64,000 bases of DNA. It comes from a virus. The notes under the pieces were generated by a model. It was not told the origin of the DNA. It searched no databases and was given only the letters and a program-made list of their open reading frames with translations. The stretch covers positions 6,724-70,723 of the IMG/VR virus record IMGVR_UViG_3300036800_000041. One strand, written 5' to 3'. Positions 2,568 through 44,000 of this stretch are shown here, in pieces. Made by a program: the position numbers and the translations under genes. Numbering within the stretch: the stretch's first letter is position 1; each line of letters starts with the position of its first letter.

Positions 2568-2972
2568 TCAATTGACCGTCTCATCTTCATAGTCCATCTC
2601 CTCGGTATCTGCGGCGAAAGCGAACACGCCAATCAGATGCGACGCCGCGAGACCGACCGGGAACAATGCCCACCACGACCAACCGATCAAACGAACCGGG
2701 ACGATGGCGCCGGCCAGGGCCAGCCACATGCTGATGCACCAGGGACATTGCACGAAATACAAGGCCGTCTGCCAGCGTCGGGCCAACGACCGGTGATATT
2801 CATGCAATTTCGGCTGTGTAAGGTCCACTTCCAGCCCTTTGGCAACGCTTCGATGTTGGCGCTCACGAGCGGCGATTGCCAACCGCGGTGCATCTAGAAT
2901 CGTGTCTGCGTTGATCAGGCGCGTTAAACGCGCAATGGCCAGAACATAGATCGTCAAAATGAACAATGTCAT
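2568..2972 (-). CDS. membrane protein, DUF1360-like
   Basis: LAIARLTRLINADTI...CPWCISMW with hydrophobic segments; ATG at 2972. Confidence 0.7.
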   Translation of the reverse strand: MTLFILTIYVLAIARLTRLINADTILDAPRLAIAARERQHRSVAKGLEVDLTQPKLHEYHRSLARRWQTALYFVQCPWCISMWLALAGAIVPVRLIGWSWWALFPVGLAASHLIGVFAFAADTEEMDYEDETVN

Positions 2973-3031
2973 GGCGCCAACACTACCGGGACAATGCCGA
3001 TAACGGCGGCAATGTGCGTTAGGATGAGCCC

Positions 3032-3598
3032 ATGCCGCGCATTCTAGGGATCGACAGCTCACTAACGGCGACGGGGCTGTGTCGCGTTGACATCGACACT
3101 CACAAGCCGGGTCCATTCAGCGCGACACTGGTAGAGGCGAAGATCGACGTTTGCACCGTCAGCGCGCCCAAGCCGGCAAAAGACAAGAGCAAACGTGCGA
3201 TGGCCCGGCGGGTGTCCGTGCTGCTGGAGCAGATCGAAGCAGCACTGGAAGGCGTCGACTTGGTGGCCCTGGAAGAACTCGCTTACGGTGCTAAGGGTGA
3301 ATCCTCATGGGTGCTGCCGTGGATCTGGGGAGAAGTCATCCGGCTGTGCGAACGCCACGACATCGATCTCGTCATCGTCAATGTTGCCACCGTGAAAAAG
3401 TACGCGACCGGCAAGGGCAACGCTGACAAAGACACCGTCCTATTAACGACGACACGGCGCTACCCTGACGTTACGCTGACCAACAATAACGAAGCCGACG
3501 CCATGGTTATCGCTGCAATCGGCTGCCGTTATCTTGGGTTTCCAATTGACACAGTCCCCAAGGTCAACCTCGAATTTATGGGAAAGCTGCATTGGTAG
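3032..3598 (+). CDS. ruvC: RuvC-like Holliday junction resolvase
   Basis: ILGIDSSLTATG, VALEE, KKYATGKGNADK and NEADA acidic catalytic motifs. Confidence 0.9.
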   Translation: MPRILGIDSSLTATGLCRVDIDTHKPGPFSATLVEAKIDVCTVSAPKPAKDKSKRAMARRVSVLLEQIEAALEGVDLVALEELAYGAKGESSWVLPWIWGEVIRLCERHDIDLVIVNVATVKKYATGKGNADKDTVLLTTTRRYPDVTLTNNNEADAMVIAAIGCRYLGFPIDTVPKVNLEFMGKLHW

Positions 3599-3723
3599 AC
3601 GATTCAGATCTGGAGGGTATCCGGGTGTACAACTTCCGGGGGGCTCCTCCCCCGTTGCAACCCAAGATCCTCTTAACTCGCGGCTACGATGCGGAAGATG
3701 ATGGCCGAGATGGCGGCGCGGCG

Positions 3724-3869
3724 ATGACCGATGAACACCTGCTCGACCGGATCACCGAGATGGTGCGCGACCACCGGCAAGCCCCGATCGAGACGATATC
3801 TGGAGACTCATTCGGGAGCATCGCCAGGTCGGCTGGCGTCGGCGCTTTACCGCCAACGACCCGACGTAA
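3724..3869 (+). pseudogene. small gene apparently broken by a frameshift near 3780
   Basis: MTDEHLLDRITEMVRDHRQ in one frame continues plausibly as SPDRDDIWRLIREHRQVGWRRRFTANDPT* in another frame; that TAA lies inside the dif-like site. Confidence 0.4.
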
Positions 3870-3887
3870 CGCACGATTATCGGCACT
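3859..3887 (-). other. dif-like (XerC/XerD) recombination site, type A
   Basis: Minus strand AGTGCCGATAA-TCGTGCG-TTACGTCGGGT: 11-bp arms, 7-bp spacer. Confidence 0.65.
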
Positions 3888-3901
3888 CGACGGAGGAAGA
3901 C

Positions 3902-4099
3902 ATGACAAACCCAGATACCGAGCGCGGCTTGTACGGCAAGTACCGCGTCGAGAAGATCAACGGCAAGCCAGTCGGGCGTGCGTTCGTCCTTGCCTACGAC
4001 AGCGACCCGCACGCCCGTGTCGCCCTTGCGGCGTATGCAGATTCATGCGAGGCGGATTATCCACAGTTGGCCGCTGACCTGCATAAACAATTGGCCTAG
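3902..4099 (+). CDS. small phage protein (GLYGKYRVEK...FVL...DPHARVALAAYA)
   Basis: GGAGGA RBS; recognisable small phage-protein motif; lies between two dif-like sites. Confidence 0.8.
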   Translation: MTNPDTERGLYGKYRVEKINGKPVGRAFVLAYDSDPHARVALAAYADSCEADYPQLAADLHKQLA

Positions 4100-4105
4100 C
4101 GCAAC

Positions 4106-4291
4106 ATGAAGCAATGGCGAGTGGTGTCGCGTGAGGACAAACTAGGCAACCTACTGTGGTCTCTGCAATACGACGTGATCTGGCTAGATGGTTCGCAGTA
4201 TGGCCTGTGGCGGGAGGATCGGGTGTTCCGCGACGAGGACATGGCAATGACTGATCTAGCCTTCGTTCAGAGCCATCCCGAGACGACATAA
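4106..4291 (+). CDS. hypothetical protein (61 aa)
   Basis: ORF whose TAA stop is part of the downstream dif-like site. Confidence 0.65.
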   Translation: MKQWRVVSREDKLGNLLWSLQYDVIWLDGSQYGLWREDRVFRDEDMAMTDLAFVQSHPETT

Positions 4292-4309
4292 GGCCCGGTT
4301 ATCGGGCTA
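4281..4309 (-). other. dif-like recombination site, type B
   Basis: Minus strand TAGCCCGATAA-CCGGGCC-TTATGTCGTCT. Confidence 0.65.
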
Positions 4310-4372
4310 AGTGGGTCAAAGGCACGGCCCAGCACCCCCTTGGCCGTTATCGGCGGACCGGTAACCCGATGG

Positions 4373-4471
4373 TTAAAGGTCTAATGATTCGTCAGCGTCG
4401 AGCTGTACCGCATCATGATCAAAATGTCGACGCCTTCGTCGTCGCCACCAGCGAATCAGTAGCGCGATCAT
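4373..4471 (-). CDS. tiny Arg-rich peptide (32 aa)
   Basis: MIALLIRWWRRRRRRHFDHDAVQLDADESLDL; ATGA overlap with the terminase stop. Confidence 0.4.
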   Translation of the reverse strand: MIALLIRWWRRRRRRHFDHDAVQLDADESLDL

Positions 4472-6243
4472 CGTGCTACTACCCGGCGTAGGAACGGGTT
4501 GTTGCGCCCGGATACGGGCTCGGTGATCCGACGTTTCATCCATGCCGGTACATCATTCATGCGCCCGGTGATCGGCGCCGCCAAGCTCATTTGTCCGGAT
4601 CCCAGCGCCGCGAGCCGGTGATGGGTGATGATGGCCGCACTCACCCGGTCAGGGCAGTGTTGGCCGGCCTGCCAGTCGGCCGCCTGGCTCTCAAACACAC
4701 TTAGTTTGTATTCAACAGTGCGGCATTTCTTGATTTCGAGCGCCTGGCGTAACTGGGCGGCGCGGCCGACCGGATCACCGGGCGTGCGCCATTTGTAGAT
4801 TGTGAAAGGCATGTCGGCCACGCAAGCGCGTTGTTCAATTGGAGTGAGCACTGCGCCGGCATTCGCCTTTTTAACCGCATCGCCGTGGATCGTGCGCCAT
4901 GCGCTTTTGATTACGTTGACGTAGGCGTTCGCCGCGGCGAACGCTTCCATCGCTATCTCGCGCGCGCCAATGGTCAATGCCAACTTAACTGCCTGGACGC
5001 CCCACGCATCCGAGCTCAGTTGGGCTGACCAGTCCTCAGCGAGCACCACAGTGCCATTCTGAGTCAAATAGCCGCCGATGATGCCGGTTTCGTCGCCTTC
5101 ACCGGAATCGGCCGGGTCGACGCCGATCACCGCGGCGACCGGCATGGTGGGAGGATTCTCCAGTCGTGGTTCGAACCAGGCGCGTTCGAACAGGCCACCG
5201 GCCGGATTACGTGGGCTACCTTGATACATCGCGTACCAGGTGCGCTCGCCGACGGCGCGGCGTGTCGCCTCGAATTGTGCTTTGGTCCGGCCGCGCGAAC
5301 TGATCATGGATTCGCCAGGTTCTCGCTGAAGGGAATCAGTGATGATGACCTCGCCAGTGTTGGCTTCGGCGACCGCGGGAATGTTGATCAACTTCCAGGT
5401 GCGATGCTCGGGCGCCAGCTTCCGCTCATTGTCAATCACTATGCCGGCTAGGTCATCGGGATGCCAGCGGGTCTGAATCAAGATCATACTAGCTTGAGGA
5501 GACAGCCGGGTCCGCGCGACAGTGTTCATCCATTCGTTGATCTTGCGACGATGAGCCGGTGAGTCGGCTTCCATCATGTTCTTGAAAGGGTCGTCAATAA
5601 TGAACAGGTCGGCGGCACGACCGGTGATCGCAGACCCGATGCCAACTGCTTTTAGGCCGCCGATGCCGCCGTCGATTCCCCAGCTCGCCACTCGGTTAGC
5701 GCGTGAGCTCAGTTTCAACCCGATCTTGTCTTGGATCTGCAATCCAGTGATCGAGTCCATAACGTCGGTGCCGTGGCTGTCGATGATCGTGCGAATTTTC
5801 GTGCTGTGTTCTTCGGCCAGCGTGTCACCGTAGGCGGCCAGGATGATTCGGCGGTTAGGGTCGAGCTGAAGCGCACGGATCGGTGTCCACACCGCGGCCA
5901 GCGTCGATTTCCCCTCCTGCGGCGGCATCGTGATAATCAGGTTACGTTGCGCGCCGGCGAGCGGGCCAGCCTCGATTTCATCGCTGATCAATCGCAAGGC
6001 CGGGGTGACGTTGAAGTCGGGATCAACGCTGGCGGCCAGGTCAACGGCATTGGCGTACTTCGTCTTGATCTCTTCGCGCCGTGCTGCCGAACGCAGCCAG
6101 GTCAGCATGGCGGTTTTTTGCTCGTCGGGCCACTTCGCGCGTTTGATTTCGGTGTAGATCAACTCGGCTTTTTCCGAGCTAAAACTGCCGTCGGTGTTCC
6201 AGACGTCGGGCGCCACGAACTCCGGCTCTTTACGGCGCGCCAT
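4468..6243 (-). CDS. terL: terminase large subunit
   Basis: Walker A-like MPPQEGKS, Walker B IIDDP, QTRWHPDDLAG, nuclease GVDPA and final PDRV. Confidence 0.95.
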   Translation of the reverse strand: MARRKEPEFVAPDVWNTDGSFSSEKAELIYTEIKRAKWPDEQKTAMLTWLRSAARREEIKTKYANAVDLAASVDPDFNVTPALRLISDEIEAGPLAGAQRNLIITMPPQEGKSTLAAVWTPIRALQLDPNRRIILAAYGDTLAEEHSTKIRTIIDSHGTDVMDSITGLQIQDKIGLKLSSRANRVASWGIDGGIGGLKAVGIGSAITGRAADLFIIDDPFKNMMEADSPAHRRKINEWMNTVARTRLSPQASMILIQTRWHPDDLAGIVIDNERKLAPEHRTWKLINIPAVAEANTGEVIITDSLQREPGESMISSRGRTKAQFEATRRAVGERTWYAMYQGSPRNPAGGLFERAWFEPRLENPPTMPVAAVIGVDPADSGEGDETGIIGGYLTQNGTVVLAEDWSAQLSSDAWGVQAVKLALTIGAREIAMEAFAAANAYVNVIKSAWRTIHGDAVKKANAGAVLTPIEQRACVADMPFTIYKWRTPGDPVGRAAQLRQALEIKKCRTVEYKLSVFESQAADWQAGQHCPDRVSAAIITHHRLAALGSGQMSLAAPITGRMNDVPAWMKRRITEPVSGRNNPFLRRVVAR

Positions 6244-6253
6244 CAGCTCATTC

Positions 6254-6367
6254 TCACACCCAATCAGCTTTAACCAACAACGCCACGATCAGCAATAAGA
6301 TAAACACTACCGATAAAGTAACAACTATCGTCTCTATTCCCGACGAACCAGGATCCTGATCGGTCAC
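6254..6367 (-). CDS. small single-TM peptide
   Basis: GTG...IVVTLSVVFILLLIVALLVKADWV; GTGA overlap with the upstream kinase stop. Confidence 0.45.
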   Translation of the reverse strand: MTDQDPGSSGIETIVVTLSVVFILLLIVALLVKADWV

Positions 6368-7890: not shown

Positions 7891-7947
7891 TTGACAATCC
7901 CGACTTAGGAGGTCTACTGTCAGTGGTGTAGGCGGGATGGTCCCGCT
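7891..7947 (+). promoter_or_regulatory. SigA-like promoter plus conserved leader hairpin
   Basis: TTGACA-N18-TACTGT, then GGCGGG-ATGGT-CCCGCT. Confidence 0.7.
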
Positions 7948-13682: not shown

Positions 13683-13939
13683 GATCGGCAGGGTAACGCG
13701 CCAGGCGGCGGTTTACATTTCTCTCGACACGCTGACCAGGCCGCTAACAACAAAACCGCAGGTCAACTTTCGATAAAATCTCGGGCAAAAATCTCGACGT
13801 TTTGTGCGCGTGAGTCGAAGTAACGGGCCGCAAGAGCCCGGCGCGCGCCGGCCAAAACGGGAGGGGCACCATCCCCAAAGGTACTGCCGCGCAACATGTT
13901 TCAGCGCTGCGGCCGAATGATGCTGCCGCGCAACACATT

Positions 13940-15762: not shown

Positions 15763-15831
15763 TTCGAGCCTTCCCGGCGGGTACCTCCCGCCTATGCCGT
15801 CGACACTACCGACAACGGTAGGGATTGTCAA
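15763..15831 (-). promoter_or_regulatory. repeated promoter-operator-hairpin-RBS unit, copy 1
   Basis: TTGACA-ATCCCTACCGTTGTCGG-TAGTGT...GGCGGGAGGTACCCGCC-GGGAAGG-ATG. Confidence 0.85.
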
Positions 15832-15930
15832 CCATCCCTTCAGAAGTGATGATCTCGATTACTCCGGCACGCCATGCCAGCGCGTAAACCTGCTCTACGA
15901 TCGTGGCGCTTATGCGCTGCACTGCCCTGG

Positions 15931-16644: not shown

Positions 16645-16714
16645 TTCGAACCTTTCCCGGCGGGTACCTCCCGCCTATGCAGTCGACACTACCGACAACG
16701 GTAGGGATTGTCAA
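16645..16714 (-). promoter_or_regulatory. repeated promoter unit, copy 2
   Basis: Near-identical to 15763-15831. Confidence 0.85.
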
Positions 16715-16729
16715 CGGGTCTCAGACAGT

Positions 16730-16801: not shown

Positions 16802-17269
16802 CTATGCGTTCTCGCAAATGTCCTCCCAACGATATCCGCTCGCGAGCCGGCGGAGCAGAGCGCCGCACTTGCACGATTGGACGTAGTAAGCGCCGCCGGC
16901 GCTTTGACCGTTCGTATCACCGGACAACCAATTGTGTTTGACGTGTGCCGCGTCGCGCGTAAGCGTCCGGTACCGATCGCCGGTTGCCCAATGGAATTGT
17001 TCGGCACCCTCATAGACACGCGGCACACGTGCGGCCGAATCGACGTTGAACAGGTGCGCGAGCACGATGCCCCACTCATCCCAGGTTGCGGTGGGATAAC
17101 CGAGATTTCCGTACATTCCGCCATTGCGGCCGGATCCGCTTAGCGTGACGTTGAATGCGCGAGCGCGCGAGTATGAGCCCTTGACGTTGAAGCCTTGCAA
17201 GTCGACGCCGGCCGCGGTAGCGGCTGCGTCGAAGTCACTGTAAACAAGCGTGTCGCTGTGGATGATCAT
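16802..17269 (-). CDS. hypothetical protein
   Basis: 155 aa; ATWDEWG motif, C-terminal CKCG. Confidence 0.85.
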   Translation of the reverse strand: MIIHSDTLVYSDFDAAATAAGVDLQGFNVKGSYSRARAFNVTLSGSGRNGGMYGNLGYPTATWDEWGIVLAHLFNVDSAARVPRVYEGAEQFHWATGDRYRTLTRDAAHVKHNWLSGDTNGQSAGGAYYVQSCKCGALLRRLASGYRWEDICENA

Positions 17270-17346
17270 GGTGAGCCCTTCAGATTGTGCGGCGAGTACC
17301 TCCCGCCTATGCGATTCACACTACCGACAACGGTAGGGAATGTCAA
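17270..17346 (-). promoter_or_regulatory. repeated promoter unit, copy 3
   Basis: TTGACA-TTCCCTACCGTTGTCGG-TAGTGT; hairpin GGCGGGAGGTACTCGCC. Confidence 0.85.
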
Positions 17347-17350
17347 ACGA

Positions 17351-17643: not shown

Positions 17644-17957
17644 TTCGGACCTTCCACCCTGCTCGCGAGCGAGCGAACCGCGGCAACGTGATCGGCTCGG
17701 TACGTGGTTCGGCTCGGTGCGCTGAAATATTGGCGAATGATCCAAGCCTCGGCCGTGTCGTCATAGCCGGCGCGTTCGTTTACCAGCGTGTCGACCGTTC
17801 TATCCCACGGGTCACAGATTGTTACCCGCCGTGCTTTGTACCCGTCAAGCAAGCGCCGGCGTTCGCGCACCGGTTCGTCCAATGCCCACATGAGTGCTGC
17901 AATGGCCATGTCATTGTGAGAGTCGTATGCGCCCGGCGACGCTGGATTAAATGACAT
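17640..17957 (-). CDS. hypothetical protein
   Basis: Follows the leader hairpin and GGAAGG RBS. Confidence 0.75.
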   Translation of the reverse strand: MSFNPASPGAYDSHNDMAIAALMWALDEPVRERRRLLDGYKARRVTICDPWDRTVDTLVNERAGYDDTAEAWIIRQYFSAPSRTTYRADHVAAVRSLASRVEGPK

Positions 17958-17959
17958 TT

Positions 17960-18090
17960 CAATGAGCCTTCCCGGCGGGTACCTCCCGCCTACAGAACAG
18001 ACCCTAGCGTGTTCGGCCGCTATTGACAAGTCTTACTTAGTCGGTATTGTCGGACTGTTAGGCGGGAGATACCCGCCGGATAGGAGGGCA
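17960..18090. promoter_or_regulatory. back-to-back divergent promoters sharing a TTGACAA -35 core, each followed by the leader hairpin
   Basis: Minus: TTGTCA-N17-TAGGGT. Plus: TTGACA-N16-TATTGT. Hairpins at 17974-17990 and 18061-18077. Confidence 0.7.
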
Positions 18091-18147
18091 TTCTGACCAG
18101 CACATATGCGATATTACACATATGTCTAGTGGCACCTGTCACTGGAT

Positions 18148-18280
18148 AAGTTCGGCGACCCGAACTTTTAATTTTGGTCGACCCTAACTTTTGAGTTCGG
18201 TGACCCTAAACCATGGTTTCGGGCAGCCGAAACTGTAAGTTCGGGCGACCCTAACATTCAAGATCGGGAAAGACGAACAT
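18148..18280. repeat. six degenerate 22-23-bp tandem repeats
   Basis: Units start at 18148, 18170, 18193, 18215, 18237 and 18260; consensus about AAGTTCGG(G)CGACCC(G/T)AAC. Confidence 0.8.
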
Positions 18281-18437
18281 ACATGCGCGGGAATCCTAAA
18301 GCATGCTTTTTCCTGACAATTCGACATGCGCGGGAATCCTAAAGCATGCTTTTTCCTGACAATTCGACATGCGCGGGAATCCTAAAGCATGCTTTTTCCT
18401 GACAATTCGACATGCACGGGAATCCTAAAGCATGCTT
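18281..18437. repeat. 43-bp tandem repeat, about 3.6 copies
   Basis: ACATGCGCGGGAATCCTAAAGCATGCTTTTTCCTGACAATTCG at 18281, 18324 and 18367; partial copy at 18410. Confidence 0.95.
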
Positions 18438-18458
18438 ATTAGCTGAAATGGAAATTGA

Positions 18459-18800
18459 TTACCGTCGACCGGTCGCTGCCCAGCGCTGCCCGCGATCGGC
18501 CGCGTAGAGTATGTTGATTCGACGCGCCAGATCAGGGTCGAGCGCGCTGAGGATTTCGTAGTAGACCTTGCGGCGGATCAGTTCATCACACAGCGCCGCG
18601 ATCCGGCCCGGCGTCGCGCGGGCTGTGTCAGAGCCGGCCACAAAGCCCAACACCAGCACCAGCGAGGCGGTCGGTTGATCGGCGATGTCGGCGGCGATCG
18701 ATCGTACCGTGGTGACCGTTTCGGCGTTCGCGACGATCGATCGATTCGAGCCGTCGGTATATCCCTGCCGGGCGAAGTGCTCAGGGTTGCTGTTCGACAT
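18459..18800 (-). CDS. hypothetical protein
   Basis: MSNSNPEHFARQG...; open frame. Confidence 0.7.
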   Translation of the reverse strand: MSNSNPEHFARQGYTDGSNRSIVANAETVTTVRSIAADIADQPTASLVLVLGFVAGSDTARATPGRIAALCDELIRRKVYYEILSALDPDLARRINILYAADRGQRWAATGRR

Positions 18801-18810
18801 GGTGGTCAGC

Positions 18811-19598: not shown

Positions 19599-19679
19599 TT
19601 GACCATACCCGCCTTAGTCGGTATTGTCGATGCAGTCAGAAACAAACACAGGCGGGATCGACTCGCCGGGAAGGCCATC
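19599..19679 (+). promoter_or_regulatory. promoter plus leader hairpin plus RBS
   Basis: TTGACC-N17-TATTGT; GGCGGG-ATCGA-CTCGCC; GGAAGG. Confidence 0.7.
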
Positions 19680-21568: not shown

Positions 21569-23361
21569 TGAATGTTCCCGACCGCAGCTGGTATGACCCG
21601 GTGCTTGACGCCTACCTGCACACCGGTGATGATGCGTTGGGGTTAGCGCAACAATTCCAATATTGGAACGGGACTCCGGTCGCGATCGATATCGAGACGC
21701 CGGGATTGGCCCGTGCTTTCGAAATTAACTGTGTGACCGCGGCATGGAATCTTGACGGCAAAATTCATGCGATCTTGTTAGATCCGGTTCGTAACGAACA
21801 CCATTTTGATGCTGTCCGTTGGTTGTGTCAGCATGCAGGTCAGCTGATCCTGCACAATGCACCGTTCGATGTGCCGCCATTGGCACATCACAGTCTGATC
21901 AGCCTGGAAATGATCGATAAAATTGTCGATACACTGCTGCTGGCCCGCTTCGCCGAGCCCGACACAATGACCAGCAAAAAGCTGGAGTCATGCGTCAAGC
22001 GTCATCTAGGCATGGACGATTTCGCCGGCGGCATGGCGTTGGCGTTCAAGGCCGCCGGTTACCGCACGATCGCCGACGGCTACGAGGGTATGGACATTGA
22101 ATCGTCCATTTATCGGGTGGGCGCGATGGCTGACACCGTGCAAACACTGCGGCTGGAGCCGATACTGCGGGCCAAAGCGATCGATTGGACGCTCGATCAC
22201 CCGTTCATCGACCACGGCGCCGTGCATCCCAACATGGCCGCGGAAATTCTGTCCAAACAGGAAACTGTCAACCGCGTGATGCTGCGCCGCTCCGCGGTTG
22301 GGCTGGCCGTCGACACGGAGTACCTGACTTTCTATGCCGAGAAAATTGACCAGCAGCGCAACATGCATATCGCCGAGCTCGCCGTTCATGGGCTGGAAGG
22401 GGGTATGGGCAAGGGGGCCGCGCTGGTCCAATATCTATTCGATCGTGGTGAATTGCCGTCAGGATGGCCGCGTACCCGCACCGGCAAATTATCATCCACA
22501 AAAGACGATCTGCAACGTCTTGACCACCCCGCTGCGCAAGCACAACGTCAGCTAGCCGAAACCGACAAGATCATGGGCTATCTGGAAAAGGTTTACCGTC
22601 AGGCCGAAGTGACCGGTCGCTGCCATCCCCAAGTCGGTGTGCTCGGCGCCAGCGCCACTGGACGTATGGCGTACTCATCACCTGAGCTCCAACAGTTTCC
22701 GAAAGATGCCCGGCCGATTATCGCCGATGACGGTCAAGGGCTCACATCGATCGACTGGTCACAGATCGAGCCGGTGACGATGGCGTTGATGGCCAAAGAC
22801 GACATTTTCTTGGCACCTTTCGAGGCCGGGGAGGATTTGTACGAACCGATTCAACGTAGCTGCGGGGTTGATCGTGATCTGGCCAAAGTTGTGCTATTGG
22901 CAACGATGTACGGCCAGGGGCCGCGATCGTTGGGTGCACGTATCGGTCACACCGAAGAATCAGCAGCACAAATTCGCCGGCAGATGCTCGCCGCGATGCC
23001 GCGATCGGGCAAGTGGATGAGCCAGGTTCAGCAGATCGCTGACATTCACGGTCGGATTATCACTGCCGGCGGCCGAATCCTGCCAGTTGACCCTGGTTTT
23101 GGCTACAAGGCGATCAACTTCGTGGTGCAGGGCAGCGCCTATGACGTTCTCGCGCACACGATCTGCGAAATGGACCGGCTTGGCATCGGCGATCACATTC
23201 AGCTGGCGATGCACGATGAAGTGGTGGTCGATACGCAGGTTGCCGAGCAGGTGCAGCAGATCATGATGACGCCGCCGCCGTTCCTGACCGCGTGGGCTGG
23301 CCGCGAGCCGGTACTGCGAACCGATCGTGCCGATATGGGCGCGAGTTGGGCAAAGGTATGA
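21568..23361 (+). CDS. polA: DNA polymerase, family A (3'-5' exonuclease plus polymerase)
   Basis: ExoI DIET, HNAPFD, TGRMAYSSPELQQ; motif A DWSQIE, motif B R..AK......YG, motif C HDE. Confidence 0.95.
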   Translation: MNVPDRSWYDPVLDAYLHTGDDALGLAQQFQYWNGTPVAIDIETPGLARAFEINCVTAAWNLDGKIHAILLDPVRNEHHFDAVRWLCQHAGQLILHNAPFDVPPLAHHSLISLEMIDKIVDTLLLARFAEPDTMTSKKLESCVKRHLGMDDFAGGMALAFKAAGYRTIADGYEGMDIESSIYRVGAMADTVQTLRLEPILRAKAIDWTLDHPFIDHGAVHPNMAAEILSKQETVNRVMLRRSAVGLAVDTEYLTFYAEKIDQQRNMHIAELAVHGLEGGMGKGAALVQYLFDRGELPSGWPRTRTGKLSSTKDDLQRLDHPAAQAQRQLAETDKIMGYLEKVYRQAEVTGRCHPQVGVLGASATGRMAYSSPELQQFPKDARPIIADDGQGLTSIDWSQIEPVTMALMAKDDIFLAPFEAGEDLYEPIQRSCGVDRDLAKVVLLATMYGQGPRSLGARIGHTEESAAQIRRQMLAAMPRSGKWMSQVQQIADIHGRIITAGGRILPVDPGFGYKAINFVVQGSAYDVLAHTICEMDRLGIGDHIQLAMHDEVVVDTQVAEQVQQIMMTPPPFLTAWAGREPVLRTDRADMGASWAKV

Positions 23362-23576: not shown

Positions 23577-26438
23577 ATGCTCGGTGCCAAACCTTTAGAA
23601 GCCATCCTCGGTAGTGGTGTTGATTCTACTAATCACGATGCGATGCGGTCATTTGTCCGCGCCGCGTGCAGTGAAGGTTTATCGCTGCTGCTGATCCTGC
23701 CCAATTCAAAGCAGCCTGCCGATATGCGCACCCCGCGCCAGCGCACCGCCGATGATAAGGCCGTCCGGCTACAGGCCAAAGAAGCCGGCCGACACGACTG
23801 GGAGCGCGTACGCAGCCCATCGGGCTTGGCACTGGCCAGCACCGATGCAAAGACGGTGCTGAAGTACCTGGACCGCTATTGCGACATGTTCAGCAAGTGG
23901 CACGATCTGACCGACGATGGTGTTCTGGTGGATTTCGACGCCAAGCGCGCCAAGGCCGGCGAAATCGAGATTATCGAGCCGGTCGCGGTCAACCTGGCTG
24001 TCGAGGTCGGTGGATCCGGTCGTGTAGTGGTCGATTGCGACACCCGCGAACAATTGGGGCGGTTCTTAGAGGTCAGCCAAGCGCCGTCCGACATGCCGCC
24101 GACGGTGACCAGTCCCGGTCAGCGCAACGTTGAAGGTGTGTGGGCACACAAGGATGGTGGCCATTTTTGGTTCACTGTGCCCGATGAAGTGATCCCGATA
24201 TTGCCGCGAAACTCCGGCGCGCTGACGTGGGGCGGTGATCACGGCTTCGCGGTGCTGTGGGAGCGGCGCTATGTGCTGATTCCACCATCGTGTCGCCCAG
24301 AGGGCTGTTATGAACTAACCGGCCGTGAATATGAACTGCCGGAATGGCTTTCGGACGCAATTATCGAGCACGGCGAAGCCCGTTTTGAGCGCAGCGTCGG
24401 CAATCGTGAAGCATTCACCGATAGTGACGATGCGTTGAGTAAAGCAATCGACAGTTGGGCCGAATCGGCCAGCTGGGCCGACATTTTGGAGCCGTTGGGC
24501 TGGACGCCGGCGCCGCGGTCCGATGGCTGTGGCTGCGCCGTGTGGAGTGCGCCAGGGCAACATGCCAGTCCGAAGTCAGCTACCGCGCACGATTCCGGTT
24601 GCTCGCTGGGCCGCTACACCGAGGTCAACTGTCCGCTGCACATTTGGACTGACCACGACGCACCGCCCTTCACCGATGACATCGGCACTGAGGGCTGGTC
24701 CCCGACTTTTAGCAAGTTACAGGCCGTTGCACGGATCGACTATGGCGGCAACATCGGTAAAGCAATGGATGAGCTCGGCCTGACGCCCGATCTGGGCATT
24801 GGTGCGGATATGGGCGTCGGGCCGGCCCGCGACATCGGCGACGACGCCGACGTGAGCATGGGCAATCTGCGCGAGGCTGATGACGGTGAAATCGAGACTG
24901 TCGATCGCCTAGCGACTGCACAAGACGGGCGGTTTGACCAGTGGCCTTCCAGCGAATCGCCAGCCGCGCACGAATCTGCATACAACGAAGCTGAGCACGG
25001 TGAAAACTGGTGCGTGCCCTGTGGCACCGGTACGGGAATTTTCGTAACCGATCCCGAGGACGGCAACCTTTATCACGCCGTTGACGATGATGATGCAAGC
25101 GAAAGTGGTCACCTCGCGCAGCCTGTGATCGCGTCCGAGAACGGTGTCGACCACATCTCGGCTGATCAGTTCGACCTTGCCGGCGCACTGCCCGAGCGCG
25201 ATACGAAACGTATCGAGGCGACACAGAACGAATCGCCGTTCGCCGATCGTGTCGATAACGCGGATCCTGACGTGTTCGAATCGGGCATGACCGGCGTGCC
25301 GCGGATCGCGCCGTTCTCCCATTGGCGTGATCTTCCGCCGCCGGAGTTCGTCATCGACGGTCTAATCGAGCATGGCGGTTTCAGCTGCCTGATCGGCCCG
25401 CCCGGCGTCGGCAAGTCGACTGTGGCCCTCGATATGGCCTGCCACATCGCCACCGGTCGACGTTGGCAGGGCAGGCAAACCCTTAAGACGAAAATCATGT
25501 ATATGCCGGGAGAAGGGCTCTCAGGGGCGATTCAGCGGCTCATCGCGTGGTGTGATGCGCGCGGTATCGATGAAAGCGACCTGAGCGAGAATTTACTACT
25601 GGCCGATTCTATTTTGCAGCTCGCCGCCAAAAATGAAGCATGGGCCGAGTTCGGCGCCTATGTCGCGCGCCAGCAGGTCGGGCTGATTATTTTCGACACG
25701 TTTGCCCGTATGTCGTTGCGGCTGGAAGAAAATAGCGCCACCGACGTCGGTCTGGCCGTCGGTCGATTCGACAACGTGCGCAAGCTGACCAACGCAGGCG
25801 TGATGGTCATCCACCACACCGCCAAGGGCCAAGACTTCGCTCGTGGATCTTCGGCGCTCAATGGCGCAATCGAATCTGAGCTGTTGCTCAAGCATGGCGA
25901 ATGGGATTACACGCCGCTGCTGGACGCTGACGGTAAGCTGCCCGGTAGGCCGATTCAGCTGACCACCAGCAAGCAGCGCAACGCCGAGCAGTTGGACGAA
26001 CCATTGCCGCTGATGATGCGGTCGTACCCGCTGCCCGACAGCGACGAATTGACCGCGGCGATCATCACCGGCCCGAACGGTGAAATTGACCCGATGAGCG
26101 GCGAAATCGTGTTGGCACGGCCCGTCGCTGAGCCGTTGGTCGAAACGGCTATACGGATCCGCGAATTTGTCGATCGCTTGCCCCAACAGGGCGCCAGCCG
26201 AAGCGAATTGGTTATCGGAGTGCGCCCTGATCCGTATGCGTTGTCGCGTGCCGACGCTGGAGCTTATTGGAAGCTACGTATCGGTGAAGCGGTCGATAGA
26301 GCGTTGCGATATCGGTTGATCGAGACACTGACCGGCACACCGAGCGGCGGTCGGTACATTCCGTGTTCGCTGGGAACATCCGAGGATGCACGCCAACGTA
26401 CGGCTGACGAAGTGATCAACCAAAACAATCAGGATTGA
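23577..26438 (+). CDS. bifunctional primase-polymerase / RecA-type (AAA_25-like) helicase
   Basis: VVVDCD and GGHFWF (AEP motifs); GPPGVGKS Walker A, IIFDT Walker B, IHHTAK..RGSSAL. Confidence 0.9.
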   Translation: MLGAKPLEAILGSGVDSTNHDAMRSFVRAACSEGLSLLLILPNSKQPADMRTPRQRTADDKAVRLQAKEAGRHDWERVRSPSGLALASTDAKTVLKYLDRYCDMFSKWHDLTDDGVLVDFDAKRAKAGEIEIIEPVAVNLAVEVGGSGRVVVDCDTREQLGRFLEVSQAPSDMPPTVTSPGQRNVEGVWAHKDGGHFWFTVPDEVIPILPRNSGALTWGGDHGFAVLWERRYVLIPPSCRPEGCYELTGREYELPEWLSDAIIEHGEARFERSVGNREAFTDSDDALSKAIDSWAESASWADILEPLGWTPAPRSDGCGCAVWSAPGQHASPKSATAHDSGCSLGRYTEVNCPLHIWTDHDAPPFTDDIGTEGWSPTFSKLQAVARIDYGGNIGKAMDELGLTPDLGIGADMGVGPARDIGDDADVSMGNLREADDGEIETVDRLATAQDGRFDQWPSSESPAAHESAYNEAEHGENWCVPCGTGTGIFVTDPEDGNLYHAVDDDDASESGHLAQPVIASENGVDHISADQFDLAGALPERDTKRIEATQNESPFADRVDNADPDVFESGMTGVPRIAPFSHWRDLPPPEFVIDGLIEHGGFSCLIGPPGVGKSTVALDMACHIATGRRWQGRQTLKTKIMYMPGEGLSGAIQRLIAWCDARGIDESDLSENLLLADSILQLAAKNEAWAEFGAYVARQQVGLIIFDTFARMSLRLEENSATDVGLAVGRFDNVRKLTNAGVMVIHHTAKGQDFARGSSALNGAIESELLLKHGEWDYTPLLDADGKLPGRPIQLTTSKQRNAEQLDEPLPLMMRSYPLPDSDELTAAIITGPNGEIDPMSGEIVLARPVAEPLVETAIRIREFVDRLPQQGASRSELVIGVRPDPYALSRADAGAYWKLRIGEAVDRALRYRLIETLTGTPSGGRYIPCSLGTSEDARQRTADEVINQNNQD

Positions 26439-26499
26439 TCAGTCTTACAGATGGCGTCAGTTATTGGCATTTATCGGTATATGAAACGGAGAACAACAA

Positions 26500-26679
26500 G
26501 TGGCCAAGATTGTCATTACTTACGAATACGAGCCGAACATGGAACATTACCCGGCCGGGACAGAAACCGCAGCTGAGGCTATGAAGATAGATGTTGAACA
26601 GGTTCAAAATGGGTCCGTTTACTGGGATGAGTTCCTAGAGGGAGGATCGGGCAAGATCACCGTTGAAGTGGTCGAGTGA
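26500..26679 (+). CDS. small acidic hypothetical protein (59 aa)
   Basis: GGAG RBS; GTG AKIVITYEYEPN...VEVVE; lower GC; stop abuts a dif-like site. Confidence 0.7.
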   Translation: MAKIVITYEYEPNMEHYPAGTETAAEAMKIDVEQVQNGSVYWDEFLEGGSGKITVEVVE

Positions 26680-26706
26680 TCCGACGTAACGCGGATTATC
26701 GGTAGA
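26679..26706 (-). other. dif-like recombination site, type A
   Basis: Minus strand TCTACCGATAA-TCCGCG-TTACGTCGGAT, canonical 11-6-11 geometry. Confidence 0.7.
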
Positions 26707-26717
26707 GAGGGTAAGGG

Positions 26718-26867
26718 ATGTTTCCATACAGGATCATTCAGCAGGCGGCTGAGGAATGGTTTGACCCGGAGGGGATTCTCCCTGGTGAGGCGTCTACCGA
26801 ACTCTTCGCGCAATTCCTACTCGCGAAACTCGGGGAGCACGGATTCGCCATCACCGAGGCGACATAA
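26718..26867 (+). CDS. small hypothetical protein (49 aa)
   Basis: MFPYRIIQQAAEEWFDPEG...AITEAT; TAA within the next dif-like site. Confidence 0.65.
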   Translation: MFPYRIIQQAAEEWFDPEGILPGEASTELFAQFLLAKLGEHGFAITEAT

Positions 26868-26886
26868 GGCCCGGGTTATCGGCGAA
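26857..26886 (-). other. dif-like recombination site, type B
   Basis: Minus strand TTCGCCGATAA-CCCGGGCC-TTATGTCGCCT (8-bp spacer). Confidence 0.65.
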
Positions 26887-27108
26887 ATCTCGATCAAAAT
26901 TCCCCAAAAAATTTTTTCGTTAAATCGCCAGATATTTCAGTCCACAATCAGATTCGGAACACGCTATGGTCTGAAGCTAGACAAACCCGTCGAAGTCGGA
27001 CTACAGTGTGAACCAGTCAGTGAGCCGGGGACAGCCCCCTAGCTTGGCCCGGCTCACCGACCACCACGCACCCGTATACGCTCACTACAACTCTGAAAGC
27101 ATCTGCAC

Positions 27109-34775: not shown

Positions 34776-34840
34776 TGGACAATGACGACTTGGGCGGGCT
34801 AGTCTTGACGTTGAGGCGGGAGGTACCCGCCGAGAGAGGC
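34776..34840 (+). promoter_or_regulatory. promoter plus conserved leader hairpin
   Basis: TGGACA-N18-TAGTCT; GGCGGGAGGTACCCGCC at 34815-34831. Confidence 0.7.
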
Positions 34841-43500: not shown

Positions 43501-44000
43501 GCAACTTGACCAACAAGAATGAATCCTGTTCCAGGGGCGCCGATTGCACCGGCCGGACCTTGCGGTCCGCGAATTGAGGTGACGGTTTGCACCCATTCGT
43601 TCTCAGAACCGGTGACGTTGACGTAATTCCAGACTGAACCGTCACTGCCAATGGCGACGTCGCCTAGCAGTGGCGATAAGTACATCGATGACAAGGTGCC
43701 GTAGATACGTGGCATTGCACCGGTCGGACCGATGACGCTGAGGGTATCGGCCCAGAAGTTATAGGACGCTGAATATATCCGCAGGATGCCCTTGGTGGGT
43801 CCGGCGACGACAACTTGCCAGTCGCCGGTGTTCGGCCAAACGACGTTGACAAATGGCGGATCGTCAGTGGTAGTGCCGAAGATCCGGGTGCCGGACTGTC
43901 CCGCCTGCCCAGTTGGGCCGCGCAGCCCGTAGGACGCGAGCAGCACACCGCCCAGTGCGGTGGCCTCGTCAGAGGCGATGGGGTCGAATACGTCGGTCAC
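40587..44000 (-). CDS. collagen-like tail fibre protein
   Basis: Several (G-X-Q/A) tracts alternating with four repeats of a TTTLT..S..Q..TG..Q.VKLP...I.N.STG.VTV domain. Confidence 0.85.

What the first reader, a model, noticed from the sequence alone, without database searches (positions are those of the whole stretch)
3859..4309. Small genes bracketed by directly repeated dif-like (XerCD) sites: candidate phage gene-cassette system, locus 1
Seen: ACCCGACGTAA-CGCACGA-TTATCGGCACT (3859-3887) and AGACGACATAA-GGCCCGG-TTATCGGGCTA (4281-4309) flank two small genes inserted between ruvC and terL. The TAA in each left arm serves as the stop codon of the preceding reading frame. A lone TTATCGGCGGA half-site follows at 4347. 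Established: dif sites are two 11-bp arms around a 6-8-bp spacer (E. coli GGTGCGCATAA-TGTATA-TTATGTTAAAT). From memory, actinobacterial dif has an XerC arm ending CCGATAA and an XerD arm starting TTATGT. The minus-strand reading here fits (..CCGATAA-N7-TTA(T/C)GTCG..). Inference: host XerCD inserts or excises small accessory genes in this phage, analogous to plasmid pdif modules but in direct orientation. I found no tyrosine recombinase in the window.
Basis: partly seen in the sequence, partly recalled or inferred. Interest (0 to 1): 0.85.

Follow-up and report, generated by a model that had tools for sequence, protein, structure and literature searches.

The report
dif-like repeats bracketing small phage genes
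A soil mycobacteriophage-like genome carries four copies of a short two-armed DNA motif, whose arms match the bacterial chromosome-resolution site dif, at the edges of small accessory genes; the motif is real, but whether host recombinases use it is unproven.

Summary
The sequences are at the stated coordinates. GACRTAA-N6-8-TTATCGG occurs 4 times in the 70,723-bp virus record, all on the + strand, with 0 in the backwards-read control. Read on the minus strand, the sites match the inner 7+7 bases of the actinobacterial dif printed in PMC3025954 with 0, 0, 1 and 1 mismatches. Simulations gave a mean of 0.09 sites per genome at exactly one mismatch and none at zero.

There are two sequence types, A and B. 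At both loci an A site precedes, and a B site closes, one or two small genes in junctions that vary among relatives.

The Xer cassette reading is only partly supported:
- The four spacers differ in length (6, 7, 7, 8) and sequence, so no pair looks able to recombine.
- The outer XerD-arm bases differ from dif.
- None of 39 related virus records has an exact site.
- Breakpoints against the closest relative lie at gene ends, not in the spacers.
- The TAA is a stop codon only in the two B sites.
- Contigs of the single run available show no excision joint.

One parallel exists: a Rhodococcus plasmid has two direct dif-like sites (spacers 6 and 7) around a 5.2-kb module, beside tyrosine-recombinase genes.

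Best reading, at about 0.3: Xer-type recombinase core sites, now mutually incompatible. A regulatory or boundary-repeat role is almost as likely.

The parts
3859..3887 (+). Site A1 (core 3863-3883: GACGTAA, 7-nt spacer, TTATCGG). It lies 18 nt upstream of the ATG of gene 3902.
   Evidence: It has 1 mismatch to the dif core. It shares 12+9 nt with A2.
4281..4309 (+). Site B1 (core 4285-4305: GACATAA, 7-nt spacer, TTATCGG). Its TAA at 4289-4291 is the stop codon of gene 4106-4291.
   Evidence: It has 0 mismatches to the dif core. It matches B2 at 28 of 29 positions with one gap.
4341..4357 (+). Half-site B1': part of a B-type spacer plus the TTATCGG arm, with no left arm.
   Evidence: GTTATCGGCG (4346-4355) is identical to the right part of B2 at 10 of 10 positions.
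26679..26706 (+). Site A2 (core 26683-26702: GACGTAA, 6-nt spacer, TTATCGG). It starts 4 nt after the TGA of gene 26500-26679 and ends 15 nt upstream of the ATG of gene 26718.
   Evidence: It has 1 mismatch to the dif core.
26857..26886 (+). Site B2 (core 26861-26882: GACATAA, 8-nt spacer, TTATCGG). Its TAA at 26865-26867 is the stop codon of gene 26718-26867.
   Evidence: It has 0 mismatches to the dif core.
2993..3026 (-). Degenerate A-type copy A0. It has TAACGCAC and TTATCGGCA as in A1, but 15 nt lie between TAA and TTATCGG. It sits on the minus strand, 24 nt upstream of the ATG (2972) of the DUF1360-type gene.
   Evidence: read directly from the sequence. Membership of the family is an inference.
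6310..6334 (-). Degenerate copy C0 (GAGACGA, then 11 nt, then TTATCGG, followed at once by TAGTGT). It lies on the minus strand, 66 nt upstream of the terL start.
   Evidence: The promoter-like reading (TAGTGT as in the repeat family) is an inference.
3902..4099 (+). Small gene g3902 (65 aa), bracketed by A1 and B1.
   Evidence: Coding score. phrog_9572, E 3.8e-24. tblastn hits in 54 phage records, mostly Mycobacterium and Gordonia.
4106..4291 (+). Small gene g4106 (61 aa), bracketed by A1 and B1.
   Evidence: Coding score. phrog_18047. tblastn hits in 20 phage records, all Mycobacterium.
26718..26867 (+). Small gene g26718 (49 aa), bracketed by A2 and B2.
   Evidence: Coding score. No tblastn match in the phage collection and no Pfam or PHROG family.
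26500..26679 (+). Small gene g26500 (59 aa), just upstream of A2 and outside the bracket. A lone TTATCGG at 26471-26477 lies 22 nt before its GTG.
   Evidence: hits in 10 Mycobacterium phage records; phrog_1673.
3592..3790 (+). ORF 3592. It looks coding to about 3760. Its frame then runs on through A1 with no stop until 4077.
   Evidence: No homologue found.
3032..3598 (+). RuvC-like Holliday-junction resolvase gene. It is the conserved left flank of locus 1.
   Evidence: phrog_159, E 3.2e-51. The Pfam RuvC match is below cut-off. Conserved in L005.
4373..4543 (-). Convergent 56-aa gene after terL. Its stop is the right edge of the segment that differs from L005.
   Evidence: the C-terminus matches the L005 homologue at 13 of 19 residues.
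4468..6243 (-). Terminase large subunit gene.
   Evidence: Pfam Terminase_6N. About 60% amino-acid identity to Mycobacterium and Gordonia phage terminases.

Best explanation
The four sites are a lineage-specific family of two-armed core sites of the tyrosine-recombinase (Xer/dif) type. Read on the minus strand, each has an XerC-type arm ending CCGATAA, a 6-8-bp central region, and an XerD-type arm starting TTA(T/C)GTCG.

They mark the edges of promoterless mini-cassettes at the 3' ends of two + strand operons:
- A1, then g3902 and g4106, then B1.
- A2, then g26718, then B2.

The proposed mechanism is inferred, not shown. Host XerC/XerD, or a related tyrosine recombinase of a co-resident element, recombined a cassette-borne site with a phage-borne site. 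This left an A-type junction upstream and a B-type junction downstream; the B junction supplies the TAA stop of the last cassette gene. The present central regions differ in length and sequence, so the cassettes are now frozen rather than freely excisable.

Shown: the sites, their non-randomness, their identity to the dif inner arms, their position and orientation, and the lack of a phage recombinase.
Inferred: any binding, any recombination, and the direction of events.
For: - The pattern occurs 4 times forward, 0 reverse and 0 in the control in the 70.7-kb record.
- These are the only 4 places in the genome within 2 mismatches of CCGATAA-N5-9-TTATGTC. They score 0, 0, 1 and 1 mismatches. In 100 Markov simulations the means were 0, 0.09 and 1.04 for 0, 1 and 2 mismatches.
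- The target core comes from the F. alni dif printed in PMC3025954. The motifs CCGATAA and the complement of TTATGTCAAGT also stand in primers for the putative mycobacterial dif cassette in PMC5364183.
- The arms are shared by the A and B types while the spacers are not, so the conservation sits on the arms.
- The two arms differ from each other in the same way as the XerC and XerD arms of dif do.
- The spacers, 6-8 bp, fall in the range I recall for Xer sites (dif and psi 6, cer 8; recalled, not checked here).
- All four sites have one orientation and lie at the ends of small accessory genes. These genes' relatives sit in unrelated phages without such sites.
- Both loci are junctions whose content differs among relatives.
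- There is no tyrosine or serine recombinase in the phage, so any recombinase would have to come from outside it.
- Parallel in the same bacterial order: Rhodococcus sp. M8 plasmid p1 has exactly two core sites on the same strand, 5.2 kb apart, with spacers of 7 and 6. They flank a four-gene module plus one hypothetical ORF. They lie next to a frameshifted tyrosine recombinase (PF00589, 43 bits) and a gene annotated 'recombinase XerD'. The 7-bp-spaced site is identical to the B1 core, spacer included, at 20 of 21 positions.
Against: - No two of the four central regions match. On the minus strand they read TCGTGCG, CCGGGCC, TCCGCG and CCCGGGCC. Mycobacterial dif has a 6-bp central region, and sites with unlike central regions do not recombine (passages of bioRxiv 10.1101/758037).
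- Within each type the spacer length has changed by one base. This argues against constraint on the spacer.
- Positions 8-10 of the XerD-type arm (GTC, GCC, GGG, GGA) differ from the AAG of dif.
- dif-like sites with the full canonical arm in IMG/VR are 6-bp spaced: 35 contigs for N6, against 4 contigs for N7 and N8 together. They are single per record: 34 of 35 records have one site and one record has a tandem pair.
- Degenerate copies have 9-15-nt spacers or lack an arm, and they follow the orientation of local genes on the minus strand as well.
- Exact sites are absent from 39 related records; 4 records have one single-mismatch hit each. They are also absent from 80 terL loci, 11 other loci and 80 RuvC loci.
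- Against L005, the differing segment is 3599-4372, so the breakpoints are gene ends rather than the spacers.
- The exact B pattern has 0 hits in viral, metagenome and genome contigs. The exact A pattern has 0 hits in viral contigs, the only collection scanned for it.
- The Rhodococcus match has a BLAST E-value of 6, so on its own it is within chance.
- The resemblance to dif was noticed after the fact, in a very large scan.
Confidence: 0.3

Rival explanations
1. The motif is a gene-boundary regulatory signal of this phage and has nothing to do with Xer. It could be a promoter-like or operator-like DNA element, or an RNA signal. In this reading, a factor reads GACRTAA and TTATCGG in the direction of transcription, and the likeness to dif is a coincidence.
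For: - 7 of 17 TTATCGG copies lie in the 10.6% of the genome called non-coding (binomial p about 0.001, on crude gene calls of my own).
- Copies are co-oriented with the neighbouring genes on both strands: A0 and C0 on the minus strand, and 26471 and 4347 on the plus strand.
- TTATCGG ends 15-24 nt before the start codons at 3902, 26718, 26500 and 2972.
- In C0 it is followed at once by TAGTGT, which is the -10 of this phage's repeated promoter-like family (TTGACA, 17 nt ending in TTGTCGG, then TAGTGT).
- From GAC to the end of TTATCGG is 16-18 nt. That is the tolerance of a sigma-70 spacer, and 'conserved arms with a spacer of +/-1' is a typical promoter pattern.
Against: - The hexamers after TTATCGG in the four full sites (CACTCG, GCTAAG, TAGAGA, CGAAAT) are poor -10 elements, and the promoter scan found nothing at the sites.
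- There is no terminator-like hairpin at the sites. The RNA folds differ between copies, with z-scores of -0.6 to -2.8. No Rfam family matched.
- The B sites sit at operon ends with no gene directly downstream.
- No regulator can be named.
- An exact 14-of-14 match to the host-clade dif core would be a coincidence.
Confidence: 0.27
2. These are passive boundary repeats. Short intergenic linkers were carried in with small genes from one donor phage, or copied between the two loci by recombination. They now serve at most as patches of homology for module shuffling, like the boundary sequences of lambdoid phages or the PeSL cassettes of T4-type phages (both recalled, not checked here).
For: - Similarity between the loci is confined to the sites and falls into two sequence types that include the spacers: A1/A2 share 12+9 nt, and B1/B2 share 28 of 29.
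- The copies differ by single-base indels, and there are decayed copies and half-sites.
- The motif is unique to this genome among everything searched.
- Both loci are variable junctions.
Against: - No donor was found.
- The arms are shared across the A and B types although the spacers are unrelated. This points to selection on the arms rather than to shared descent alone.
- The bracketed genes have different, unlinked distributions in other phages, and there they have no such linkers.
- The exact match to the dif core would again be a coincidence.
Confidence: 0.25
3. Chance: the four matches are unrelated sequences that merely look alike.
For: None beyond the small size of the motif.
Against: - 4 sites observed against 0 in the control.
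- 0 of 100 shuffles reach the observed TTATCGG count.
- Simulations give a mean of 0.09 sites per genome at exactly one mismatch and none at zero.
- B1 and B2 match at 28 of 29 positions.
Confidence: 0.02

Closest known systems
Chromosomal dif / XerCD of Actinobacteria (F. alni dif as printed in PMC3025954; mycobacterial dif as described in bioRxiv 10.1101/758037)
   Same: The sites have two arms around a short central region. The inner 7 bases of each arm are identical in B1 and B2 and differ by one base in A1 and A2. The host, not the element, would supply the recombinase.
   Different: dif is a single 28-bp site with a 6-bp central region. Here there are four sites with central regions of 6, 7, 7 and 8 bp, and the outer XerD-arm bases differ (AAG in dif; GTC, GCC, GGG, GGA here). 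The sites are in a phage, at gene ends.
dif modules flanked by pdif sites on Acinetobacter plasmids (PMC9455709, abstract and passages read; PMC7399989, start of the abstract in the search listing only)
   Same: Accessory genes are bracketed by Xer-type sites on a mobile replicon that relies on host XerC/XerD. There are several sites per replicon.
   Different: pdif sites are drawn as C/D and D/C, that is in both orientations; that they alternate around a module is my recollection. Here all four sites are direct. Those modules sit on plasmids and are seen moving between plasmids. Here no second carrier of any cassette with its sites was found, and the replicon is a tailed-phage genome.
Integrative mobile elements exploiting Xer (IMEX: CTX, VGJ and TLC phages; TLC paper PMC9226527, abstract in the listing only; the rest recalled)
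   Same: A virus without an integrase uses dif-like sites and host Xer. Integrated IMEX elements are flanked by direct dif-like sites with unlike central regions (recalled).
   Different: IMEX elements integrate whole into the host dif. Here the sites lie inside a 70-kb tailed-phage genome around 150-400-bp gene cassettes.
Integron gene cassettes (attC / IntI; recalled)
   Same: Promoterless small ORFs lie at the end of a transcription unit. Each is closed by a recombination site that can contain the stop codon.
   Different: No IntI-type integrase was found (PF00589 gave 0 hits). No attC-like long imperfect inverted repeat is evident in the short A and B sites read; this was not tested formally. 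The site type is different.
Rhodococcus sp. M8 plasmid p1 (NZ_CP064066.1), two dif-like sites at 17087-17107 and 22280-22299
   Same: The core arms are the same. The sites are direct repeats with unlike central regions of 7 and 6 bp that bracket a gene module. One site matches the B1 core, spacer included, at 20 of 21 positions. The host belongs to Mycobacteriales.
   Different: Its XerD-type arm (TTATGTCAACC) is closer to dif. The module is 5.2 kb of metabolic and transport genes. Tyrosine-recombinase genes lie beside it. Nothing is known about its activity. I found no paper on it: one search returned 0 papers.
PeSL mobile regulatory cassettes of T4-type phages and boundary sequences of lambdoid phages (recalled, not checked)
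   Same: Short conserved intergenic sequences bracket small accessory ORFs in variable regions of lytic phage genomes.
   Different: Those are promoter plus stem-loop units, or plain patches of homology, used by homologous recombination. Here no promoter or conserved hairpin was found, and the arms equal a site-specific recombination core.

Membership tests
Xer (dif-type) recombination site | Two arms of about 11 bp whose inner bases match the host-clade dif (CCGATAA ... TTATGTC) | tested here: met
   the four sites have 0, 0, 1 and 1 mismatches to the 7+7 core taken from PMC3025954. They are the only four places in the genome within 2 mismatches.
Xer (dif-type) recombination site | Outer bases of the XerD arm conserved (TTATGTCAAGT in F. 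alni; 29 of 36 viral dif-like sites continue AAG with T) | tested here: not met
   the phage sites read TTAYGTCG plus two variable bases plus T. Positions 8-10 differ in all four sites.
Xer (dif-type) recombination site | Central region of 6 bp (6-8 bp in plasmid Xer sites; the latter range is recalled) | tested here: inconclusive
   The spacers are 6, 7, 7 and 8. Mycobacterial dif has 6. In viral contigs the canonical arms occur with N6 in 35 contigs, and with N7 or N8 in 4 contigs together. A 7-bp-spaced site exists on the Rhodococcus plasmid.
Xer (dif-type) recombination site | Partner sites share the same central region, so that strands can be exchanged | tested here: not met
   All four central regions differ in sequence, and three of the six possible pairs differ in length as well. 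The rule is taken from the passages of bioRxiv 10.1101/758037.
Xer (dif-type) recombination site | Bound and recombined by XerC and XerD of the host | not testable with these tools
   The host is unknown (metagenomic virus record).
dif module (pdif-flanked module) | The same module, with its flanking sites, is found in different replicons | tested here: not met
   Relatives of g3902 and g4106 in four other phages sit in tight operons without the motif. The exact sites are found nowhere else.
dif module (pdif-flanked module) | Presence/absence breakpoints in relatives fall at the sites | tested here: not met
   Against L005, the segment that differs is 3599-4372: from the ruvC stop to the stop of the convergent gene. 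At locus 2 the whole primase-helicase interval varies. Only distant relatives were available (at most 81% TerL identity).
Integron cassette array | An IntI-type tyrosine integrase with attI and attC sites | tested here: not met
   PF00589 and PF02899 gave 0 hits in the record.
Sigma-70-type promoter | -35 and -10 hexamers 16-18 nt apart, with A2 and T6 in the -10 | tested here: not met
   The scans found no promoter-like match at any of the four sites. The geometry fits, but the -10 hexamers do not (read).
Intrinsic terminator or structured RNA | A conserved G+C-rich hairpin (with a T run), or a known RNA family | tested here: not met
   No terminator-like site at the four sites. The folds differ between copies, with z-scores of -0.6 to -2.8. 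0 Rfam matches at E<=1 for locus 1; locus 2 was not scanned against Rfam.

The most novel reading that the evidence does not exclude
Host XerC/XerD, or a related tyrosine recombinase from a co-resident element, inserts promoterless mini-cassettes of one or two small genes at the 3' ends of operons in a lytic, integrase-less tailed mycobacteriophage. This would be an integron-like or dif-module-like gene-capture system in a phage. The pair of dif-like sites around a 5.2-kb module on a Rhodococcus plasmid would be the same system at work elsewhere in Mycobacteriales.
Probability: 0.2. Interest if true: 0.85.

Novelty: new variant of a known kind. Interest (0 to 1): 0.5.

Why it matters
Tailed phage genomes are mosaics, and how small accessory genes get in and out of them is largely unexplained.

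If host Xer recombinases, or related ones, act on sites like these, that would be a site-specific route for gene capture in an integrase-less phage. It would extend dif modules and IMEX elements from plasmids and filamentous phages to Caudoviricetes and to Actinobacteria. It would also give a sequence signature to search for in thousands of actinophage genomes.

If instead the motif is a regulatory signal, it is an ordinary lineage-specific phage motif. Its likeness to dif would then be a warning about after-the-fact matches in very large scans.

Tried and rejected
- **Exact site patterns in public collections.** The A and B patterns gave 0 hits in viral contigs. The B pattern gave 0 in metagenome contigs and 0 in genome contigs. 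The A pattern was not scanned in those two collections.
- **Relaxed B pattern** (TAAGGCCCGG, 0-1 base, TTATCGG): 5 viral contigs, all with unrelated left arms.
Each had a single site, and most belong to one conserved sequence in low-G+C contigs. This was uninformative.
- **Closer relatives.** TerL relatives: the best is L005 at 81% amino-acid identity, and 0 of 80 loci have the motif. Helicase relatives: 7 loci, 0 with the motif. RuvC relatives in metagenomes: the best is 51-56%, and 0 of 80 loci have the motif. No near-identical relative lacking a cassette was found, so breakpoints could be read only against a distant genome.
- **Megablast** of 3000-5000 against phages: no match.
- **Sequencing runs.** One run was found. 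It is kept as contigs and may be the source sample. Laid on 2800-5200, one contig covers 2978-4543 with no differences, and no joints are listed. Contigs drop rare variants, so this says little about excision.
- **Host dif.** A primer printed in PMC5364183 was scanned in genome contigs to reach a Mycobacterium genome. It gave one chance hit in an unrelated MAG, with no second arm. The host's own dif could therefore not be compared.
- **A1 against plasmids:** one chance hit. **B1 against phages:** one chance hit.
- **Homology between bracketed genes.** The four small proteins do not match each other. The best pair, g3902 against g4106, has E 0.5 over 21 residues.
- **Frameshift idea** (ORF 3592 shifting into the frame closed by the A1 TAA). 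Rejected: no frame scores as coding after about 3760.
- **RNA structure, Rfam, promoter and terminator scans:** nothing consistent.
- **DnaA-box likeness** of TTATCGGCA: considered by eye only (7 of 9 to the recalled box) and not pursued.
- **Tables in papers.** The dif sequence tables in bioRxiv 10.1101/758037 are images, and supplements are closed. The exact mycobacterial dif and its variants were therefore not seen.
- **Literature.** 'mycobacteriophage' plus 'XerCD' returned 13 papers, none on phage cassettes judging by title and abstract start. 'Rhodococcus, dif, XerC, plasmid, module' returned 0 papers.
Full report
**What the window is.** The window is bases 6724-70723 of a 70,723-bp IMG/VR virus record rated 100% complete.
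- Its large terminase (4468-6243, minus strand; Pfam Terminase_6N) is about 60% identical to terminases of Mycobacterium and Gordonia phages of about 70 kb.
- No near-identical phage is in the GenBank phage set.
- G+C content is 59.6%.
- Relatives of the small genes studied here are mostly (g3902), or only (g4106, g26500), in Mycobacterium phages and prophages. The host is therefore probably a Mycobacterium or a close relative. That is an inference.

**The observation.**
- TTATCGG occurs 16 times in the window, against 5.75 +/- 2.31 in 100 shuffles. The largest shuffle count was 12, and 0 shuffles reached 16.
- GACRTAA-N6-8-TTATCGG occurs four times in the whole record, all on the + strand. 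It occurs 0 times on the other strand and 0 times when the pattern is read backwards.
- The two extra copies are at 26683-26702 and 26861-26882.
- The four sites fall into two sequence types:
  - A type (3863-3883 and 26683-26702): CCGACGTAACGC, then 1-2 bases, then GATTATCGG.
  - B type (4285-4305 and 26861-26882): CCGAG, one base, CGACATAAGGCCCGG, 0-1 base, TTATCGG. The two copies match at 28 of 29 positions with one gap.
- Similarity between the two loci is confined to these sites. The four small proteins do not match each other.

**Anatomy.** Both loci have the same layout at the 3' end of a + strand operon.
- Locus 1, in order:
  - the RuvC-like resolvase gene (3032-3598; phrog_159, E 3e-51);
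  - ORF 3592;
  - A1;
  - a Shine-Dalgarno-like GGAGGAAG;
  - g3902 (65 aa);
  - g4106 (61 aa), whose TAA lies inside B1;
  - 41 nt;
  - a half-site that repeats the right part of B2 (10 of 10);
  - the stop of a convergent 56-aa gene that follows terL.
- Locus 2, in order:
  - the primase/helicase-type gene (23577-26438; Prim-Pol plus AAA_25);
  - a lone TTATCGG;
  - g26500;
  - A2;
  - g26718 (49 aa), whose TAA lies inside B2;
  - 240 nt of A+T-rich non-coding DNA;
  - a helicase gene.
  - At A1, the frame closed by the TAA has no start codon and scores as non-coding.
  - The coding-like frame, that of ORF 3592, stops looking like a gene at about 3760. It then runs through A1 with no stop until 4077.
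  - At A2, the upstream gene ends in TGA eight bases before the TAA.

**Likeness to dif.** I tested the likeness against a sequence from print, not from memory.
- PMC3025954 gives the suggested Frankia alni dif as an arm ending CCGATAA, six central bases, and an arm TTATGTCAAGT (passage read).
- Primers printed in PMC5364183 for a putative mycobacterial dif cassette contain CCGATAA and the complement of TTATGTCAAGT.
- I searched the whole genome on both strands for CCGATAA-N5-9-TTATGTC with up to two mismatches. This returns exactly the four sites, with 0 (B1), 0 (B2), 1 (A1) and 1 (A2) mismatches.
- In 100 first-order Markov simulations the mean counts were 0, 0.09 and 1.04 for 0, 1 and 2 mismatches.
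- The likeness of the inner arms is therefore exact and not a product of base composition.
- It stops there:
  - bases 8-10 of the XerD-type arm differ in all four sites;
  - the central regions are 7, 7, 6 and 8 bases long, and no two are alike.

**Is this what Xer sites look like in viruses?**
- The canonical core with six central bases and the arm continued to AAG occurs in 35 IMG/VR contigs (36 sites). In 29 of the 36, the next base is the T of dif.
- The whole records hold one site each, apart from one with a tandem pair. Nine of the records are at least 90% complete.
- The same arms with seven or eight central bases occur in only 4 contigs for the two lengths together.
- Natural dif-like sites in viral contigs are therefore single and 6-bp spaced. 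The four sites here are neither.
- In the passages of bioRxiv 10.1101/758037 that I read, the minimal mycobacterial site is 28 bp with a 6-bp central region, and sites whose central regions differ do not recombine with each other.
- By that rule, none of the six possible pairs here should recombine.

**Relatives.**
- None of 80 terL-linked loci, 11 other loci or 80 RuvC-linked metagenome loci has the motif.
- In 39 whole related records (about 2.3 Mb), an exact match occurs 0 times. Four records have one single-mismatch match each.
- The closest relative found is L005, with TerL 81% identical.
  - It aligns at 71-76% nucleotide identity on both sides of locus 1.
  - Between the ruvC stop and the stop of the convergent gene it has 190 bp, where the window has 774 bp.
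  - The small ORFs there are unrelated, while the convergent gene's C-terminus is conserved.
  - The replaced segment (3599-4372) therefore starts 260 bp before A1 and ends about 65 bp after B1.
- At locus 2, the interval between primase and helicase ranges from about 170 to 1790 bp in seven relatives. None has g26500, g26718 or the motif.
- Both loci are thus true variable junctions. With the distant relatives available, however, the breakpoints are gene ends, not the spacers.
- Relatives of g3902 and g4106 in four other phages sit in tightly packed operons with no such sites.

**Other copies and the regulatory rival.** Besides the four full sites there are decayed copies.
- A0 is on the minus strand at 2993-3026. 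It has A1-like TAACGCAC and TTATCGGCA, but 15 bases between TAA and TTATCGG. It lies 24 nt before the start of the DUF1360-type gene.
- C0 is on the minus strand at 6310-6334, upstream of terL. There, TTATCGG is followed directly by TAGTGT.
- TAGTGT is the -10 of a repeated promoter-like family in this phage: TTGACA, 17 nt ending in TTGTCGG, then TAGTGT.
- By my own crude gene calls, 7 of 17 TTATCGG copies lie in the 10.6% of the genome that is non-coding (p about 0.001).
- All non-coding copies point the same way as the neighbouring genes.
- The distance from GAC to the end of TTATCGG is 16-18 nt, which is the spacing of a sigma-70 promoter.
- These points favour a gene-boundary signal. Against it:
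  - the hexamers that follow the four full sites are poor -10 elements;
  - the consensus scans found no promoter or terminator at the sites;
  - the RNA folds differ from copy to copy;
  - Rfam has nothing at locus 1.

**An unexpected parallel.**
- A short-query blastn of B1 against plasmids hit Rhodococcus sp. M8 plasmid p1 and three variants of that plasmid. The match is 20 of 21 positions over exactly the core site, spacer included.
- The E-value is 6, so alone this is within chance.
- That plasmid has exactly two places matching CCGATAA-N6-8-TTAYGTC with one mismatch allowed.
  - Both are exact.
  - Both are on the same strand, 5.2 kb apart.
  - Both have the arm TTATGTCAACC.
  - Their central regions are 7 and 6 bases.
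- They flank alcohol dehydrogenase, thioesterase, GntR and MFS genes plus one hypothetical ORF.
- About 210 bp from the 7-bp-spaced site lies a frameshifted tyrosine recombinase (PF00589, 43 bits). Beyond it lie a Cro/C1-type regulator and a gene annotated 'recombinase XerD', which has no Pfam match at E<=0.01.
- By my own rough estimate, about 0.01 exact sites are expected in 173 kb, so the pair is not chance.
- This shows that direct pairs of dif-like sites with unlike central regions around a gene module do occur in Mycobacteriales.
- It also shows that the recombinase involved need not be XerCD.
- I found no paper on this: one search returned 0 papers.

**Direct evidence for excision.** There is none.
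- Only one sequencing run holds the region. It is kept as contigs and may be the source of the record.
- One contig covers 2978-4543 without a difference, and no joints are reported.

**Weighing.**
- The match to the host-clade dif core is too good to dismiss. Arms conserved across two otherwise unrelated site types, a 6-8-base spacer, one orientation and a position at the edges of accessory genes are what a tyrosine-recombinase core site would look like.
- On the other side stand:
  - the unlike and length-variable central regions;
  - the non-dif outer arm;
  - the decayed gene-oriented copies;
  - the absence from all relatives;
  - breakpoints that miss the sites;
  - the after-the-fact nature of the match in a very large scan.
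- My confidences are:

| Reading | Confidence |
|---|---|
| Xer-type sites, now frozen | about 0.3 |
| Regulatory boundary signal | 0.27 |
| Passive boundary repeats | 0.25 |
| Chance | 0.02 |
| Something not thought of | the rest |

- A live cassette system, the most novel reading, I put at about 0.2.

**Limits.**
- Supplements and the image tables with the mycobacterial dif sequences could not be read.
- The host's own dif could not be compared.
- The cer, psi, IMEX, integron, PeSL and lambdoid boundary-sequence comparisons rest on recall, except where a call is cited.

Noticed in passing
window 15771-15832, 16654-16715, 17286-17347, 17969-18030 (inverted copy 18040-18084; hairpin part also at 7914-7946, 19647-19675, 34814-34839): A 62-nt repeat family. 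Read on the minus strand it is a promoter-like TTGACA, 17 nt, TAGTGT, followed by a GGCGGGAGGTACCCGCC hairpin. It stands in front of small minus-strand genes and is probably an early promoter plus operator set.
   Followed up: partly
window 18281-18440 and 18151-18267: Three overlapping 74-nt copies of a 43-nt-period tandem repeat, spanning 160 nt (about 3.7 units), and a nearby 3-copy repeat. Both lie in a 1.2-kb stretch without called genes (17644-18810).
   Followed up: no
window 41242-43348, inside ORF 40587-44000 (minus strand, 1137 aa): About 20 copies of an 18-nt-period repeat in three blocks within a very long structural gene. This may encode a collagen-like or Gly-rich repeat in a tail-fibre-type protein.
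   Followed up: no
window 2840-2977 and 4801-4903: Contigs of run X1 show a second, less deep variant with about 9% differences in these two stretches (16 and 15 listed sites). No listed variant lies anywhere between 2978 and 4800. Two co-occurring strains may therefore share an identical 1.8-kb ruvC-to-terL-end segment. The left edge lies within about 20 nt of the degenerate A0 copy. The right edge is at no site.
   Followed up: partly
window 3592-4077: ORF 3592 starts at a TTG overlapping the ruvC stop and looks coding to about 3760. It then has no stop codon until 4077, so its frame overlaps all of g3902. It has no homologue in the phage set. It may be a gene whose 3' end was lost.
   Followed up: partly
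window 26868-27108 and 13683-13939: The non-coding stretch after B2 is A+T-rich (50% G+C), with an A6T6 run and AAATCTCG. That octamer occurs twice more in the 13683-13939 gap. Because it lies between the primase and helicase genes, it could be a replication origin.
   Followed up: no
Rhodococcus sp. M8 plasmid p1, NZ_CP064066.1 13919-22299 (L343): Two direct dif-like sites (central regions of 7 and 6 bp, both with the arm TTATGTCAACC) flank a 5.2-kb module of ADH, PaaI, GntR and MFS genes plus one hypothetical ORF. Next to them lie a frameshifted tyrosine recombinase, an HTH gene and a 465-aa 'recombinase XerD' with no Pfam match. This is a candidate dif-module-like unit in Actinobacteria.
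   Followed up: partly
IMG/VR loci L215-L249: 35 viral contigs carry a canonical actinobacterial-type dif core (6-bp centre), one per record; one record has a tandem pair. Nine of the records are at least 90% complete. L215 lies in the same 56-kb contig as L064, a distant TerL relative (38% identity). These are candidate Xer-dependent phages or plasmid-prophages.
   Followed up: partly
window 2568-4372: The DUF1360-type gene (minus strand) and the + strand block ruvC / ORF 3592 / g3902 / g4106 lie between the 630-aa gene (650-2542, probably the portal; that is an inference) and terL, both on the minus strand. The same ruvC placement is seen in L005.
   Followed up: no
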